DNA of 42,889 nucleotides from IMG/VR virus record IMGVR_UViG_2703718853_000004, one strand, 5' to 3'. How positions within the stretch are numbered: position 1 is the stretch's first letter; each line of letters starts with the position of its first letter. Of this stretch, positions 27,182-37,050 are shown piece after piece. A program made the position numbers and the translations under genes. Origin of the DNA: a virus. Lineage: Duplodnaviria > Heunggongvirae > Uroviricota > Caudoviricetes. The notes beneath the pieces are model-generated. The model worked only from the letters and a program-made list of their open reading frames with translations. It was not told where the DNA came from and did no database searches.

Positions 27182-27256
27182 TGGCGGGACAGGAAGGATT
27201 CGAACCTTCTACCATTCGGTTAACAGCCGAACGCACAACCGCTGTGCTTCTGACCC
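27182..27256 (-). tRNA. tRNA-like gene, anticodon GTT (Asn), atypical
   Basis: Hand-folded 75-nt cloverleaf: acceptor GGGTCAG/CTGTCCC (one T-T mismatch), anticodon arm TTCGG-CTGTTAA-CCGAA, T-arm GAAGG-TTCGAAT-CCTTC, 3' GCCA; position 8 is A rather than U. Confidence 0.5.
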
Positions 27257-34467: not shown

Positions 34468-34698
<231 letters not shown>

Positions 34699-34711: not shown

Positions 34712-34785
34712 ATATACATATTGTATTCTTTTCTTGCAAGGTAAATATACAAATTGTGACTCGAAGAAAGATATACAACTTGTAT
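34712..34785. promoter_or_regulatory. OR-like operator region with three TATACA-NN-TTGTAT palindromes between the cro-like gene and cI
   Basis: ATATACAtaTTGTAT (34712..34726), ATATACAaaTTGT (34745..34757), ATATACAacTTGTAT (34771..34785). Confidence 0.55.
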
Positions 34786-34794
34786 CATTTGGGT

Positions 34795-35454
34795 ATGAGC
34801 ATGAAATGGTATGACCTAGCAAAGTCCCTCATGAAAACGAAGGGCATAAACCAGGAAGAGCTGGCAGAGCATCTCGGGATCACCAAAGGTGCCGTTAGTC
34901 ATTGGCTAAACGCAAGGAGAGAGCCCAGCCTGGAGGACATAGCTAAAATTCTTCGCTTCCTCGGCAAGAATAATTTTTCTGTGGGTGCTGGCGGCATGAT
35001 AATTGATGAAAACATCAAGGGTGATGTTGAGTACGTTGGGCCCTATAAGCGCGGCAACGAATATCCAGTGCTTAGTAGTGTTCAGGCTGGATCGTGGCGA
35101 GAGGCTATAGAACCTTATTCCATCAAAGATGTTGATCTGTGGCTTGAGTCGAATGCACATATCCAAGGGGAAGCGTTCTGGCTGCTTGTTGAAGGCGATT
35201 CCATGACGTCACCAGTCGGGCTAAGCATTCCAGAGGGTACCTACGTTTTGTTTGATACCGGCCGAGAGCCAGTAAATGGCAGCCTTGTGATCGCAAAGCT
35301 ATCCGAATCAAACGAAGCGACATTCAAAAAGCTGATTATTGATGGGGGCCAAAAGTACCTGAAGGGCTTAAACCCTCAATGGCCATTGGTTCCCATCAAC
35401 GGAAACTGTCGAATCATTGGTGTGGCCGTAGAAACTAAGTTAAGGCTTGTGTGA
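34795..35454 (+). CDS. cI: CI-type prophage repressor (N-terminal HTH, C-terminal LexA-like S24 peptidase domain)
   Basis: HTH (EELAEHLGITKGAVSHWLN); C-terminal LVEGDSMTSP and a downstream Lys consistent with a Ser-Lys autocleavage dyad. Start at ATG 34795 (or 34801), not the ORF-track GTG that overlaps the third operator. Confidence 0.75.
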   Translation: MSMKWYDLAKSLMKTKGINQEELAEHLGITKGAVSHWLNARREPSLEDIAKILRFLGKNNFSVGAGGMIIDENIKGDVEYVGPYKRGNEYPVLSSVQAGSWREAIEPYSIKDVDLWLESNAHIQGEAFWLLVEGDSMTSPVGLSIPEGTYVLFDTGREPVNGSLVIAKLSESNEATFKKLIIDGGQKYLKGLNPQWPLVPINGNCRIIGVAVETKLRLV

Positions 35455-35462
35455 TCGGCAGC

Positions 35463-35491
35463 ATGCCGCAGACGTACAGGAAGCATGGGTA
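35463..35491. repeat. 29-bp direct repeat, left copy
   Basis: ATGCCGCAGACGTACAGGAAGCATGGGTA matches 35665..35693 with one mismatch. Confidence 0.5.
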
Positions 35492-35514
35492 AAGCTTTAG
35501 CACGCAGAGGAAGC

Positions 35515-35634
35515 ATGTCTGATCTGATTATCCCAATACTCATTACTTTACTGATTATCGGACTGGTTGGGATAGTGCTCAGGCTGGATAAGATTTTCTT
35601 CAAGCGAAGGGATGAGCGGGATGACTTTGAGTGA
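35515..35634 (+). CDS. Small hydrophobic peptide (39 aa; 49 aa if started at 35485)
   Basis: MSDLIIPILITLLIIGLVGIVLRLDKIFFKRRDERDDFE: one TM helix plus charged tail; AGGAAG SD before the ATG; flanked by the 29-bp direct repeats. Confidence 0.35.
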   Translation: MSDLIIPILITLLIIGLVGIVLRLDKIFFKRRDERDDFE

Positions 35635-35664
35635 GCCAGACCGGTAGTTCGATGTGTTTTTGGT

Positions 35665-35693
35665 AATGCCGAAGACGTACAGGAAGCATGGGT
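35665..35693. repeat. 29-bp direct repeat, right copy
   Basis: ATGCCGAAGACGTACAGGAAGCATGGGTA. Confidence 0.5.
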
Positions 35694-35853
35694 AGCCATC
35701 AGCCTATCGAAGCGATTAAGTAATTTTTATGACCACTATCTTTCAAAGGTTGATGCTTAGTGTATGATGAGTTTAAAGCCGTATATGCTTAATTACGTGT
35801 CAGCATATTTTTGTAAGATCCGGTCAGATTGTTCCTTTTTTGAGCAACTCTGG

Positions 35854-35882
35854 TTGAAAACCTCTTTGAGGGATCCTATATA
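35854..35882 (+). promoter_or_regulatory. Sigma70-like promoter for the immunity-region moron
   Basis: TTGAAA, 17-nt spacer, TATATA, followed by AAGGAG SD and a GTG start. Confidence 0.45.
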
Positions 35883-35895
35883 AGGAGTATAGTTA

Positions 35896-36261
35896 GTGAC
35901 CCGAAACCCTGGAGATGAATCCGTTGAAGTTTTGCATAAAAGAGCAGTAGCGCGGTTTAACTCTCTTACTTATGCAATCATCGGTGAAATCAGTTCTATG
36001 CTCAGCAAGGCCAAATTATTGCCAATTCCTGAGCTACAGTTGAACAACCCTACATTCGAAGAGGTTGTTTCACAGTTAAGACTTTATCGCGCCCTATCCG
36101 AAAAAGTCGCTGAGTTGTTAAAAATTGATAGGAAAGATGAACTAGCTGAGCTTGACGCGTACATCGAGCTCGCAGATGACTTGGCTCAAGCCATTGTAGC
36201 TGACAATCCTGAAGGGTTGTGCGCCGCCATAGCTGCTTTGGATGAGAAGCCATACGTATAA
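35896..36261 (+). CDS. Hypothetical helical protein (121 aa), moron gene 1
   Basis: GTG start 8 nt after AAGGAG; AT-rich; no recognisable motif. Confidence 0.45.
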   Translation: MTRNPGDESVEVLHKRAVARFNSLTYAIIGEISSMLSKAKLLPIPELQLNNPTFEEVVSQLRLYRALSEKVAELLKIDRKDELAELDAYIELADDLAQAIVADNPEGLCAAIAALDEKPYV

Positions 36262-36278
36262 CAAACGAGGAGCACACG

Positions 36279-36407
36279 ATGGAAAACCGTTACGACTTTG
36301 AGACCGTATTCGCACTGCTGAACGAAATGGAAGCATGCCTGAATAACGTTCGCCGACTGAATGCCCAGTTGGATGAAAGTCTGCGAGCTATTCCACTGGC
36401 AGCTTAA
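36279..36407 (+). CDS. Hypothetical small protein (42 aa), moron gene 2
   Basis: MENRYDFETVFALLNEMEACLNNVRRLNAQLDESLRAIPLAA; GAGGAG SD 6 nt upstream; followed by a terminator. Confidence 0.35.
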   Translation: MENRYDFETVFALLNEMEACLNNVRRLNAQLDESLRAIPLAA

Positions 36408-36438
36408 CATATCAGCAGCTATTAGAAATTCATCCAGA

Positions 36439-36467
36439 CCCGGCGCGGCCCCCGCGCCGGGTTTTTA
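36439..36467 (+). terminator. Rho-independent terminator ending the immunity-region moron
   Basis: CCCGGCGCGG-ccc-CCGCGCCGGG perfect GC stem followed by TTTTT. Confidence 0.7.
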
Positions 36468-36626
36468 CTGCCTTCCGATCCATATCGGACAGCACCCGAC
36501 CACCAACACAAGCAATTGATTATTTAGAAAATATCTACTTTTTATCTTCATTTGCCCACTATTTGAACATCGCCCCGATCCCCATGGTTAACGGCATCAC
36601 TGCTGGCTAGCTGTTGACTACCGGCC

Positions 36627-36830
36627 CTACTCTTCCCTCAGCATCAGCACGTCCAGTGCCAGCTCCACAGTCAGTTCTACCCTGTTTCCCTGCCACAGCA
36701 CCTGAATCATCTCTATCAGCGCCTCTCTTGATGGCTCGCGCTTCTCAACCAGCAGTTGCATAACCGCTATCCCGATAACCTGCGCTATCTGTGGGTGCAT
36801 CTCTGCGAAAAACTCATCCTCATTCGACAT
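36627..36830 (-). CDS. Hypothetical protein (67 aa) transcribed divergently from the OL-like region
   Basis: AGAGGG SD 9 nt upstream; plausible composition; convergent with the cI operon. Confidence 0.4.
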   Translation of the reverse strand: MSNEDEFFAEMHPQIAQVIGIAVMQLLVEKREPSREALIEMIQVLWQGNRVELTVELALDVLMLREE

Positions 36831-36928: not shown

Positions 36929-36970
36929 GTATACGTATTGTATTGCAAGTAATGAATACGTTTTGTATAT
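36929..36970. promoter_or_regulatory. OL-like operator region
   Basis: GTATACGTATTGTAT and AATACGTTTTGTATAT resemble the OR half-site consensus; AT-rich intergenic region before the early-left operon. Confidence 0.45.
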
Positions 36971-37050
36971 TCACCTCATCCAAACAACACCGGCAACGCC
37001 GGGGTGAAGTCAAAACGTCCCGTTAGCCGCGATAAGGCAAAGGTGAAGAG

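What the first reader, a model, noticed from the sequence alone, without database searches (positions are those of the whole stretch)
35455..35700. Hydrophobic 39-aa peptide gene bracketed by 29-bp direct repeats immediately downstream of cI
Two near-identical 29-bp repeats (one mismatch), 202 bp apart, flank a small ORF encoding one TM helix plus a charged tail, resembling type I toxins (Hok/Ldr-like) or small exclusion proteins. Each repeat itself carries an AGGAAG-CATG (SD plus ATG) unit, so the arrangement looks like a duplicated translation-initiation region or the footprint of a cassette insertion. In lambda the equivalent position holds rexAB.
Basis: partly seen in the sequence, partly recalled or inferred. 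Interest (0 to 1): 0.6.

Follow-up and report, generated by a model that had tools for sequence, protein, structure and literature searches.

The report
Small membrane-protein gene beside phage repressor
A real, conserved 39-residue membrane-protein gene sits just after the repressor gene of a lambda-like prophage, and the two repeats around it are leftover copies of another repressor gene's last codons, marking where phages have swapped this small gene in and out.

Summary
R1 (35463-35491) and R2 (35666-35694) match at 28 of 29 bases, 203 bp start to start, and bracket a 39-codon ORF (35515-35634).

**The ORF is a real gene.** It is intact in 122 of 122 related phage loci. pN/pS is 0.13, and the transmembrane half is almost invariant. 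It lies inside the immunity region, between OR and OL, on the cI strand. No terminator is predicted before it, so it is probably expressed with cI in lysogens.

**The repeats are not a cassette footprint in the transposon sense.** In 100 of 137 related loci the same sequence is the coding 3' end of another repressor allele (...GSMPQTYRKHG*). In the window both copies are non-coding fossils of that tail, and mosaic joints fall on them.
- One relative (L140) lacks exactly one repeat plus the ORF (203 bp).
- Another (L090) is 99-100% identical to the window from R2 onward but has a different repressor.

**The gene does not need the repeats.** 64 of 122 loci lack one or both.

**The slot is shared.** It also holds YoaK-family and at least five other tiny transmembrane ORFs, often between the same kind of fossil tails.

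**The type I toxin reading finds no support.** There is no family hit, antisense promoter, structured RNA or own promoter.

The gene is a new member of a known kind (an immunity-region moron). Its function is unknown.

The parts
34712..34787 (.). OR: three operators of the type ATATACAnnTTGTAT between the divergent cro-like gene (34468-34686, minus strand) and cI. A PR-like promoter lies on the minus strand.
   Evidence: 13 motif matches against 4.0 expected. Exact copies at 34712 and 34771. Promoter TTGCAA-17-TATATT at 34739-34711 (minus).
34795..35454 (+). cI-type repressor (HTH plus S24 peptidase), the allele ending ...ETKLRLV*. The mechanical ORF starts at GTG 34756. RefSeq homologues start at the ATG equivalent to 34795.
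   Evidence: Peptidase_S24 1.3e-22, HTH_3 1.4e-12; phrog_4, transcriptional repressor.
35451..35492 (+). Fossil of the 3' end of another repressor allele (GTGATCGGCAGC ATGCCGCAGACGTACAGGAAGCATGGGTAA = VIGSMPQTYRKHG*). Here it is out of frame and non-coding. It contains repeat R1 (35463-35491).
   Evidence: the same sequence closes 224-250-codon repressor ORFs in 100 of 137 related loci.
35503..35517 (+). R1b: a degenerate third copy of the repeat (CGCAGA, a 6-nt deletion, GGAAGCATG) that provides the SD (GAGGAAG) and ATG of the 39-aa ORF.
   Evidence: family D1. It is retained in loci that lack R1, where homology starts at TGCAGAGGAAGCATG.
35515..35634 (+). p39: a 39-codon gene for a single-pass small membrane protein. 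Predicted transmembrane segment is residues 4-22, with a basic-then-acidic tail predicted to be cytoplasmic.
   Evidence: intact in 122 of 122 loci, 42 nucleotide alleles, pN/pS 0.127, variable sites 24/12/5 at codon positions 3/1/2.
35635..35665 (+). T': a spacer (GCCAGACCGGTAGTTCGATGTGTTTTTGGTA) that resembles the lambda-type repressor-tail fossil T (GCCAGTGGCCTGATGAGGTGTTTGGGTGA = ASQWPDEVFG*).
   Evidence: by eye. In three loci (L055, L092, L102) a clearer T follows the ORF directly. The homology of T' itself was not tested statistically.
35666..35695 (+). R2: a second fossil of the repressor tail (MPKTYRKHG*, stop TAG). It is the mosaic joint to the downstream module.
   Evidence: L090 has a different repressor and is 99-100% identical to the window from about 35790 to 36540 and 89-90% in the blocks on either side (35642 and 36542). 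L140 lacks exactly 35470-35672.
35896..36407 (+). Two further immunity-region ORFs on the cI strand: 121 aa (35896-36261) and 42 aa (36279-36407). Function unknown.
   Evidence: phrog_13858 at 1.2e-38; phrog_12503 at 2.5e-5. No PADLOC, NCBIfam or Pfam family.
36439..36466 (+). Strong intrinsic terminator (CCCGGCGCGG-CCC-CCGCGCCGGG followed by UUUUU). It is the likely end of the cI operon.
   Evidence: -26 kcal/mol, z = -5.1, 0 of 200 shuffles fold as well.
36929..36971 (+). OL operators and a PL-like promoter (TTGCAA-17-TATATT) reading rightwards towards the kil, gam and recT genes.
   Evidence: Homologous loci annotate KilR, GamL and RecT downstream.

Best explanation
The window is a lambda-like prophage of Klebsiella or E. 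coli. The 39-codon ORF (p39) is a genuine accessory gene (a moron) in the immunity region. It encodes a single-pass inner-membrane protein, predicted N-terminus out, with a 17-residue charged tail in the cytoplasm. It is most likely transcribed with cI from PRM, so it would be made in lysogens.

The two 29-bp repeats are not signals made for this gene. They are copies of the last codons of a different, widespread repressor allele (...GKVIGSMPQTYRKHG*). R1 was left behind when the present repressor allele (...ETKLRLV*) was joined to that tail at the shared GTG/TGATCGG. R2 is the tail that once closed the repressor upstream of the present downstream module (orf121, orf42, terminator).

Because these roughly 30-40 bp tails are shared by many phages, they act as short homology patches. 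Recombination at these patches re-assorts repressor, micro-gene and downstream module, probably helped by the phages' own RecT/Erf enzymes. Recombination between R1 and R2 deletes the micro-gene and leaves a solo tail.

The tails also carry an SD plus ATG. The p39 start is built from a degenerate third copy of the tail, which suggests the gene began as a translationally coupled reading frame overlapping a repressor stop codon.

What p39 does is inferred only. My working guess is a lysogen-expressed membrane modulator or superinfection-exclusion factor. It is probably not a lethal toxin.

Shown: the anatomy, purifying selection, the indel, the mosaic joints and the coding origin of the repeats. 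Inferred: PRM co-transcription, membrane topology, the recombination mechanism and the function.
For: - **Repeats and ORF:**
- **Immunity-region position:** operators at OR and OL bracket the gene. No terminator-like or promoter-like site lies between the cI stop and the ORF. The first strong terminator is at 36439-36466.
- **Real gene:** about 49 protein clusters in Klebsiella pneumoniae, K. aerogenes, K. variicola and E. coli, with conservative substitutions. The ORF is intact in 122 of 122 ORF-anchored phage loci. pN/pS is 0.127 over 42 alleles, and variable sites number 24/12/5 at codon positions 3/1/2. Residues 1-24 are invariant except positions 5 and 21.
- **The repeat is a repressor tail:** in 100 of 137 loci it closes a 224-250-codon repressor ORF. 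In 19 loci it follows the LRLV allele as a non-coding relic.
- **Clean indel:** L140 has the same repressor type and, for about 200 bp, the same downstream sequence as the window. It carries a solo hybrid repeat and lacks exactly 35470-35672. L002 versus L007 shows the same kind of indel in another context.
- **Mosaic joint at R2:** L090 has a different repressor, a coding solo R, and 99-100% identity to the window from about 35790 to 36540 (89-90% in the blocks either side).
- **Re-assortment:** p39 lies downstream of at least 4 repressor types and upstream of about 31 different sequences.
- **Independence from the repeats:** 58 loci have R1 and R2, 37 have R1 only, 22 have R2 only, and 5 have neither.
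- **Same slot, other micro-genes:** YoaK-family p32 (NF033821, 63.8 bits) and five more transmembrane ORF families occur there. They are often arranged as R-x-R or T-x-T.
- **Precedent:** a gene on the PRM mRNA that overlaps the repressor end is known as 434 hex (PMC3564112).
Against: - No expression data exist. PRM co-transcription rests only on the absence of consensus signals in a simple scan.
- The SD-to-ATG spacing of p39 is short: GAGGAAGC then ATG, 3-4 nt.
- Loci were recruited by exact DNA words, so the proportions are not population frequencies.
- How the second tail copy first arose is not explained by simple homologous exchange. The same 'tail, micro-gene, tail' pattern recurs for at least four unrelated micro-genes and two tail types. 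This hints at something more systematic than chance illegitimate joins.
- Non-coding R2 and T' are not clearly more diverged than fourfold-degenerate sites (pi 0.043 and 0.035 against 0.056). A function for these sequences cannot be excluded.
- The function of p39 is a guess.
Confidence: 0.72

Rival explanations
1. Type I toxin-antitoxin module (Hok/Ldr/Fst-like). p39 would be a membrane-damaging toxin held in check by an antisense RNA. The repeats would be the RNA-RNA interaction sites, as the direct repeats are in the par locus of pAD1.
For: Size and shape fit: an N-terminal hydrophobic helix with a proline, and a charged C-terminal tail. It sits in a prophage, and type I systems are known in prophages (review PMC12648545). 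An antisense transcript across R2 would also be complementary to R1 and to the p39 ribosome-binding site (sequence logic only).
Against: - No hit to Hok, Ldr, Fst or any other toxin family at E <= 1.
- No Rfam family on either strand.
- No promoter-like site on either strand within 35455-35700.
- Neither strand folds better than shuffled sequence (z = 0.67 and 0.20).
- The conserved unit is only about 200 bp and ends at R2, and the flanks beyond R2 differ among loci. An antisense promoter reading into R2 therefore cannot be part of the unit.
- 64 of 122 loci lack one or both repeats, yet the ORF is intact in all of them.
- The gene lies 22-60 nt behind the repressor gene with no terminator, which suggests steady expression in lysogens.
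Confidence: 0.08
2. The repeats are functional signals rather than passive fossils. They would be portable 'stop, SD, start' junctions that couple translation of each micro-gene to the upstream reading frame, or sites for RNA processing or a DNA-binding factor. On this view they are kept by selection wherever a micro-gene is inserted.
For: - Each tail carries an SD plus ATG (R: AGGAAGCATGGGTAA; T: GAGGTGTTTGGGTGATG).
- The p39 start is a tail copy.
- p23 starts at the TGATG of a T copy. p23 and p27 stop inside the next T copy.
- The tail, micro-gene, tail pattern recurs for p39, p32, p30+p32, p23 and p27.
- R2 and T' are no more diverged than fourfold-degenerate sites.
Against: - The ATG in R2 opens only short, non-conserved frames of 3-21 codons.
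- The left edge of R2 differs between cassettes, at roughly 23, 29 and 45 nt.
- Many p39 loci lack R2 or R1.
- The low divergence of R is inflated because loci were chosen by an exact 17-mer inside R.
Confidence: 0.15
3. The segment is a mobile cassette inserted by a dedicated mechanism, either transposition with a target-site duplication or site-specific recombination at an att-like site equal to the repeat.
For: A precise 203-bp presence/absence polymorphism flanked by direct repeats, with a solo hybrid repeat in the empty site. The cassette occurs in many different contexts.
Against: - No recombinase or transposase lies in or next to the unit, and it has no terminal inverted repeats (0 inverted pairs).
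- 29 bp is far longer than usual target-site duplications.
- The 'site' is simply the end of a gene.
- A second, unrelated tail sequence (T) plays the same role for other micro-genes.
- Junction positions within the tail vary between cassettes.
Confidence: 0.04
4. The ORF is a chance open frame in junk left by recombination and has no protein product.
For: It is unannotated in most RefSeq records. It matches no protein family. The SD spacing is short.
Against: Intact in 122 of 122 loci across 42 alleles. pN/pS is 0.127 and variation is concentrated at third codon positions. The sense frame has the lowest pN/pS of the frames tested. Substitutions are conservative: I/V, D/E, R/K.
Confidence: 0.02

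Closest known systems
Lambda rexA-rexB, and lysogen-expressed immunity-region genes in general
   Same: Located between cI and OL on the cI strand, inside the immunity region. Accessory, and variably present among related phages.
   Different: No sequence relationship. p39 is a single 39-residue peptide, not a two-protein sensor plus channel. No exclusion phenotype has been tested, and there is no PADLOC hit.
Phage 434 hex (PMC3564112)
   Same: A second reading frame on the PRM transcript that begins at or overlaps the 3' end of the repressor gene. The p39 start looks like a former repressor tail, and in C2-tail loci p39 starts 22 nt after the repressor stop codon.
   Different: Hex is predicted at 158 aa and is soluble. 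It acts on RecA-mediated repressor cleavage. p39 is a membrane peptide with no similarity to it.
YoaK family small membrane proteins (NCBIfam NF033821), and E. coli small membrane proteins generally
   Same: Same size class and single transmembrane helix. Prophage YoaK homologues (p32) occupy the same slot, bracketed by the same repeats, and occur next to p39 in L094.
   Different: p39 itself does not match the YoaK model or any other curated family. Its family is tiny: 9 representatives among 1.84 billion proteins.
Type I toxins (Hok, Ldr, Fst, BsrG)
   Same: A short hydrophobic helix followed by a charged tail. Association with prophages.
   Different: No family hit, no antisense RNA signal, no structured mRNA, no own promoter, and an operon position behind the repressor.
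Mosaic joints or 'linker' homologies of lambdoid phages, and solo-LTR-like deletion between direct repeats
   Same: Short sequences shared by otherwise unrelated modules lie exactly at the exchange points. A solo hybrid repeat marks the empty site. The role of Rad52-like phage recombinases in such exchanges is recalled from general knowledge (Martinsohn 2008; De Paepe 2014). I did not check those papers here.
   Different: Here the linker is a recognisable gene fragment, the repressor's last codons, and it is reiterated to punctuate arrays of micro-genes.

Membership tests
Type I toxin-antitoxin (Hok/Ldr/Fst type) | The toxin belongs to a known toxin family by sequence | tested here: not met
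   The Pfam scan at E <= 1 gives only three chance-level hydrophobic matches (DUF3377, DUF808, Endomucin), with no Hok, Ldr or Fst. NCBIfam gives none.
Type I toxin-antitoxin (Hok/Ldr/Fst type) | An antisense or divergent small RNA with its own promoter, complementary to the toxin mRNA | tested here: inconclusive
   No promoter-like site on the minus strand in 35455-35700. No Rfam family. The minus-strand fold is unremarkable (z = 0.20). The flanks beyond R2 are not conserved. A consensus scan cannot prove that such an RNA is absent.
Type I toxin-antitoxin (Hok/Ldr/Fst type) | The toxin mRNA has its own promoter and a strongly structured, translation-blocking fold | tested here: not met
   No plus-strand promoter between cI and the ORF. 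The 281-nt fold has z = +0.67, and 155 of 200 shuffles fold at least as well.
Type I toxin-antitoxin (Hok/Ldr/Fst type) | Toxic when over-expressed | not testable with these tools
   Needs an induction experiment.
Immunity-region accessory gene (lambda rex / 434 hex type slot) | Lies between OR and OL on the repressor strand | tested here: met
   Operators at 34712-34787 and 36929-36970. The ORF is at 35515-35634 on the plus strand.
Immunity-region accessory gene (lambda rex / 434 hex type slot) | Co-transcribed with the repressor in lysogens | tested here: inconclusive
   No terminator-like site between 35454 and 35515. The first strong terminator is at 36439-36466. Transcripts were not observed.
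Immunity-region accessory gene (lambda rex / 434 hex type slot) | Dispensable: present or absent among otherwise similar phages | tested here: met
   L140, L090 and L058 lack it in the same context. 81 of 137 repeat-bearing loci lack it.
YoaK family small membrane protein | Scores above the NF033821 cut-off | tested here: not met
   p39 has no hit. The neighbouring-slot peptide p32 scores 63.8 bits against a cut-off of 32.
Transposon or site-specific cassette | Terminal inverted repeats, an att-type structure, or an associated recombinase | tested here: not met
   0 inverted repeats in 34800-36400. The unit contains only the 39-codon ORF. The repeat is a gene end.
Known anti-phage defence proteins | Matches a PADLOC model | tested here: not met
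   No PADLOC hit for p39, p32, orf121, orf42 or orf67.

The most novel reading that the evidence does not exclude
In these Enterobacteriaceae prophages the last codons of repressor genes (the R and T tails) may act as portable junction modules. Each is a stop, SD, start unit that also provides 30-40 bp of shared homology. The phages would use these modules to capture, stack, exchange and drop very small membrane-protein genes in the repressor operon. That would amount to a cassette array built from gene-end fossils (for example R-p39-R-T-p23-T and R-T-p23-T-p27-T). p39 would be its commonest cargo, and it would have been born from a reading frame overlapping a repressor stop codon.
Probability: 0.25. 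Interest if true: 0.6.

Novelty: new member of a known kind. Interest (0 to 1): 0.42.

Why it matters
p39 is an unannotated, strongly conserved small membrane protein carried by hundreds of Klebsiella and E. coli prophages, at the one place in a prophage that is expressed in every lysogen. One protein variant alone is indexed in 498 blocks of the contig collection. Genes in that slot (rex, hex, bstA) have repeatedly turned out to affect phage exclusion or lysogen stability, so p39 is a cheap and well-defined candidate for a knockout or expression test.

The wider pattern gives a concrete, testable example of how short shared sequences drive phage mosaicism. At least seven families of 23-39-residue transmembrane ORFs, including YoaK homologues, sit behind the repressor and are separated by fossil repressor tails. 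It also shows how micro-genes may arise from overlapping gene ends.

The finding also corrects a tempting mis-annotation of p39 as a type I toxin.

Tried and rejected
- **Homologue search with the 39-aa sequence:** I used the 49-aa in-frame extension instead.
- **tblastn of p39 against GenBank phages:** no match, although the DNA is there. The low-complexity filter probably removed it, so this is not informative.
- **Genome-contig scan with the 17-mer:** 22 hits, but only five in Enterobacteriaceae (Kluyvera twice, Yokenella, Raoultella, one MAG). The other 17 are in unrelated phyla, as expected by chance for a 17-mer in 596 Gb. I excluded them.
- **Family and RNA searches:** Pfam, PHROGs, NCBIfam and PADLOC gave nothing for p39. 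Rfam gave nothing relevant.
- **RNA folding:** the cassette on both strands, and the R1 and R2 neighbourhoods, show no structure beyond shuffled controls. A weak hairpin spans T' and R2 (z = -1.9) with no U-tract, so it is not a terminator.
- **Profile search of 1.84 billion representatives:** found no distant relatives.
- **Minus-strand 107-aa ORF (35376-35699):** its frame stays open in 41 of 42 alleles, but pN/pS is 0.27 against 0.13 for the sense frame, and its ends lie in variable flanks. I rejected it as a by-product.
- **Selection on R2 and T':** nucleotide diversity is not clearly below that of fourfold-degenerate sites, and the sample is biased by how loci were recruited. Inconclusive.
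- **49-aa isoform starting in R1:** loci without R1 have an in-frame stop upstream, so the 39-aa form is the conserved product.
- **Structure prediction:** not run, because a single helix would add nothing.
Full report
**1. The observation**

The repeat finder on 34800-36400 returns a two-copy family:
- R1 at 35463-35491, ATGCCGCAGACGTACAGGAAGCATGGGTA
- R2 at 35666-35694, ATGCCGAAGACGTACAGGAAGCATGGGTA

They match at 28 of 29 positions and are 203 bp apart start to start. Under a uniform base model about 3e-7 such pairs are expected in a 42.9-kb window.

Between them lies a 39-codon ORF, 35515-35634: MSDLIIPILITLLIIGLVGIVLRLDKIFFKRRDERDDFE. It has one strongly hydrophobic stretch (residues 4-22, mean hydropathy 3.1). 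The tail is basic near the membrane (RLDKIFFKRR, net +4) and acidic at its end. That pattern predicts an N-out, C-in single-pass membrane peptide.

The same repeat family has a third, degenerate member at about 35503-35517. It reads CGCAGA-GGAAGCATG, which is the repeat with six bases missing. This copy supplies the ORF's SD (GAGGAAG) and ATG. The only correction is the spacing, which is 203 rather than 202.

**2. Where it sits**

The upstream gene (34795-35454; mechanical ORF from 34756) is an HTH plus S24-peptidase repressor (Peptidase_S24 1.3e-22; phrog_4). It is divergent from a Cro-like gene.

The operator motif ATATACAnnTTGTAT occurs three times between the two genes (34712-34787). It occurs again at 36929-36970 next to a PL-like promoter, TTGCAA-17-TATATT. 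That is 13 matches against 4.0 expected, a count reached by 0 of 100 shuffles.

The interval from OR to OL is therefore the immunity region. On the cI strand it contains cI, the 39-codon ORF, a 121-codon ORF and a 42-codon ORF. A very strong intrinsic terminator follows at 36439-36466 (-26 kcal/mol, z = -5.1).

The simple scan finds no terminator-like or promoter-like site between the cI stop and the small ORF. Co-transcription from PRM is the natural inference but was not observed.

**3. The ORF is a real gene**

A protein search with the in-frame 49-residue version finds about 49 clusters, mostly called as 39 aa. They come from Klebsiella pneumoniae, K. aerogenes, K. variicola and E. coli. 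Substitutions are conservative: I/V, D/E, R/K.

I then recruited phage contigs with a word internal to the ORF, which is neutral with respect to the repeats. This gave 122 evaluable loci. All 122 carry an intact 39-codon frame.

Over 42 distinct nucleotide alleles:
- pS is 0.244 and pN is 0.031, giving a ratio of 0.127.
- Variable sites number 24, 12 and 5 at codon positions 3, 1 and 2.
- Residues 1-24 are invariant except positions 5 and 21.

The fully antisense frame also stays open. Its ratio is higher (0.27) and its ends lie in variable flanks, so I treat the 107-codon minus-strand ORF (35376-35699) as a by-product.

The family is narrow. A profile search of 1.84 billion cluster representatives finds nine proteins, all obvious members. 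Pfam, PHROGs, NCBIfam and PADLOC have no model for it.

**4. What the repeats are**

Aligning the region with relatives shows that R1 is normally coding sequence. In 100 of the 137 related loci recruited through a 17-mer of the repeat, GTGATCGGCAGCATGCCGCAGACGTACAGGAAGCATGGGTAA is the end of a 224-250-codon repressor ORF (...GKVIGSMPQTYRKHG*). In 19 loci, the window among them, a different repressor allele (...ETKLRLV*) stops at a TGA created at GTG|TGATCGG. There the tail follows out of frame as a fossil.

R2 reads MPKTYRKHG* and is the same tail again.

The spacer between the ORF's stop codon and R2 resembles, by eye, a second kind of fossil, which I call T. T reads GCCAGTGGCCTGATGAGGTGTTTGGGTGA (ASQWPDEVFG*), which I recognise from memory as close to the C-terminus of lambda cI. 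T follows R2 or the ORF in many loci.

The repeats are therefore relics of repressor gene ends. They are not target duplications, and they are not signals made for this gene.

**5. The segment is a clean indel, and the repeats are mosaic joints**

- **L140** has the same repressor type and, for about 200 bp, the same downstream sequence as the window. It has a single repeat whose left part is R1-like (CCGCAG) and whose right part is R2-like (TAG-CCATCAGCC). It lacks exactly 35470-35672, which is 203 bp.
- **L090** has a different repressor that ends in a coding R. It is 99-100% identical to the window from about 35790 to 36540 and 89-90% in the adjoining blocks. The window is thus a join, at R2, of a repressor-R1-ORF segment to an R-orf121-orf42-terminator segment.
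- **L002 versus L007** shows the same indel in another downstream context.

The ORF occurs behind at least four repressor types and in front of about 31 different downstream sequences.

It does not depend on the repeats. Of the 122 ORF-anchored loci, 58 have both, 37 have only R1, 22 have only R2 and 5 have neither. The data show the opposite.

**6. The slot is a nursery for micro membrane proteins**

Among the 137 repeat-bearing loci, the first kilobase after the repressor contains at least seven families of 23-39-residue ORFs with one transmembrane helix:

| Family | Length (aa) | Loci | Sequence |
|---|---|---|---|
| p39 | 39 | 54 | MSDLIIPILITLLIIGLVGIVLRLDKIFFKRRDERDDFE (window allele) |
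| p32 | 32 | 12 | MRIGIAFPVIVFIVAVVFLTWFIVGGYVTPGA |
| p25 | 25 | 5 | MKEHFFNGLVALISVMAISLLIFHW |
| p27 | about 27 | 6 | M(V)RKYLVVIIAAILVALIVWQWVLDLG |
| p23 | 23 | 4 | MREYLIVGVVTLLSVVAIVLMVA |
| p33 | 33 | 4 | MRSLIFVLALIVIVAGICVFMLQDNALKGFSAW |
| p30 | 30 | 2 | MKESSRFALIVIALLLCVLFVVQAIVLLVK |

p32 is a YoaK-family small membrane protein (NF033821, 63.8 bits against a cut-off of 32). YoaK is treated as a small membrane protein of E. coli in PMC10470546.

These ORFs are frequently bracketed by the same fossils. Observed arrangements include R-p32-R, R-p30-p32-R, R-p39-R-p32, R-p39-R-T-p23-T, R-T-p23-T-p27-T and R-p39-R-T-p25-p33-p27.

In L052 and L123, p23 begins at the TGATG that ends one T copy. 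In L052, p27 begins a few bases after the next T copy. Both stop at the TGA inside the following T copy. There, T works as a stop, SD, start junction.

The p39 start is likewise a degenerate R copy. Read in the repressor frame it gives ...QRKHV* with the ATG overlapping the stop (sequence). This suggests the gene originated as a frame overlapping a repressor stop codon, as 434 hex overlaps its repressor (PMC3564112).

**7. Mechanism proposed**

Shown:
- the anatomy and position in the immunity region
- purifying selection on the ORF
- the coding origin of the repeats
- the precise indel and the mosaic joints at R
- the independence of the gene from the repeats

Inferred:
- p39 is transcribed with cI and translated in lysogens.
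- It inserts in the inner membrane N-out, C-in.
- The shared 30-40-bp tails are the homology at which phage genomes exchange arms. These phages encode RecT or Erf just beyond PL. The capacity of such enzymes to use short, imperfect homology is general knowledge and was not tested here. Recombination between R1 and R2 would delete the gene.
- The physiological role of p39 is unknown. I favour a lysogen-benefit function at the membrane, either exclusion of incoming phage DNA or modulation of a host membrane protein. The reasons are the slot it occupies and the nature of its neighbours.

**8. Rivals**

*Type I toxin.* Only the general shape supports it. Against it:
- no family hit and no Rfam hit
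- no promoter-like site on either strand within the unit
- no excess RNA structure
- no room for a conserved antisense promoter, because conservation ends at R2
- an operon position behind the repressor

*Functional junction or regulatory site.* This remains open at modest probability. The recurrent tail, micro-gene, tail pattern and the SD plus ATG content of both tail types speak for it. R2 and T' are no more diverged than fourfold-degenerate sites (pi 0.043 and 0.035 against 0.056). However, that sample was chosen by an exact match inside R.

*Dedicated mobile cassette.* Unlikely. There are no inverted repeats and no recombinase, the junction edges vary, and two unrelated tail sequences do the same job.

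*Chance ORF.* Excluded by the selection data.

**9. Comparison and novelty**

In position, this is like lambda rexAB, 434 hex and other repressor-linked accessory genes. In product, it is like YoaK-type small membrane proteins. It belongs to none of these families by sequence.

The repeats are an instance of the short shared sequences known to mark lambdoid mosaic joints. Here they can be recognised as gene-end fossils.

I rate it a new member of a known kind. p39 is an undescribed but common small membrane-protein family in Klebsiella and E. coli prophages. The array-like organisation of micro-genes between repressor-tail fossils is the part that may be new. It deserves an unbiased survey.

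**10. Caveats**

- Promoter and terminator calls are consensus scans.
- The homology of T' to T was judged by eye.
- No expression or phenotype data exist.

Noticed in passing
L033/L096 (154-bp spacing), L037/L045 (166 bp), L072/L143 (270 bp): The same repressor-tail repeats bracket other tiny transmembrane ORFs. One is a 32-aa YoaK-family protein (NF033821, 63.8 bits). In L072 and L143 there is an additional 30-aa ORF (MKESSRFALIVIALLLCVLFVVQAIVLLVK). The R2 copies here extend into a diverged ...LLIVGVLQTYRKHG* relic.
   Followed up: partly
L052 and L123 (first 300 nt after the repressor stop); also L048, L062: Arrays such as R-T-p23-T-p27-T. p23 starts at the TGATG of one lambda-type tail fossil, and p27 starts a few bases after the next one. 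Both ORFs stop at a TGA inside the following fossil. The fossil therefore acts as a reiterated stop, SD, start junction.
   Followed up: partly
window 36929-36971: A second operator cluster (GTATACGTATTGTAT, ATATACAAAACGTAT) with a PL-like promoter, TTGCAA-17-TATATT, identical in its hexamers to the PR-like promoter at 34739-34711. This defines the immunity region as about 34.7-37.0 kb.
   Followed up: partly
window 36627-36830 (minus strand): A 67-aa ORF (phrog_3946, 9e-38, unknown function) lies convergent to the cI operon, between the terminator and OL. The same ORF is conserved at this position in every related locus inspected (204-nt minus-strand CDS).
   Followed up: no
window 35896-36407: orf121 (phrog_13858) and orf42 (phrog_12503) form a separate module preceded by a promoter-like site (TTGAGG-16-TATAGT, 35866-35893). 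The whole block from R2 to about 36690 is 99-100% identical (89-90% at its edges) in L090, behind a different repressor.
   Followed up: partly
window 35688-35723: The ATG inside R2 opens an 11-codon frame (MGSHQPIEAIK*). In loci where R is coding it would overlap the repressor stop codon (ATGGGTAG). L005 has MGSDLPIEAIK*. It is probably not a gene, but this was not tested.
   Followed up: no
window 36322-36342: A fourth weak match to the repeat core (ACGAAATGGAAGCATGCCTGA, 81% to the R1b copy) lies inside orf42. It is most likely chance.
   Followed up: no
window 27182-27256 (minus strand): A tRNA-Asn (GTT) gene lies inside the prophage, among the late or lysis-proximal genes.
   Followed up: no
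L035, L082, L135 and similar loci: p39 also occurs about 220 nt downstream of a short (131-aa) HTH-only repressor that lacks an S24 domain. There is no R1 there, and homology to the window starts only at TGCAGAGGAAGCATG.
   Followed up: partly
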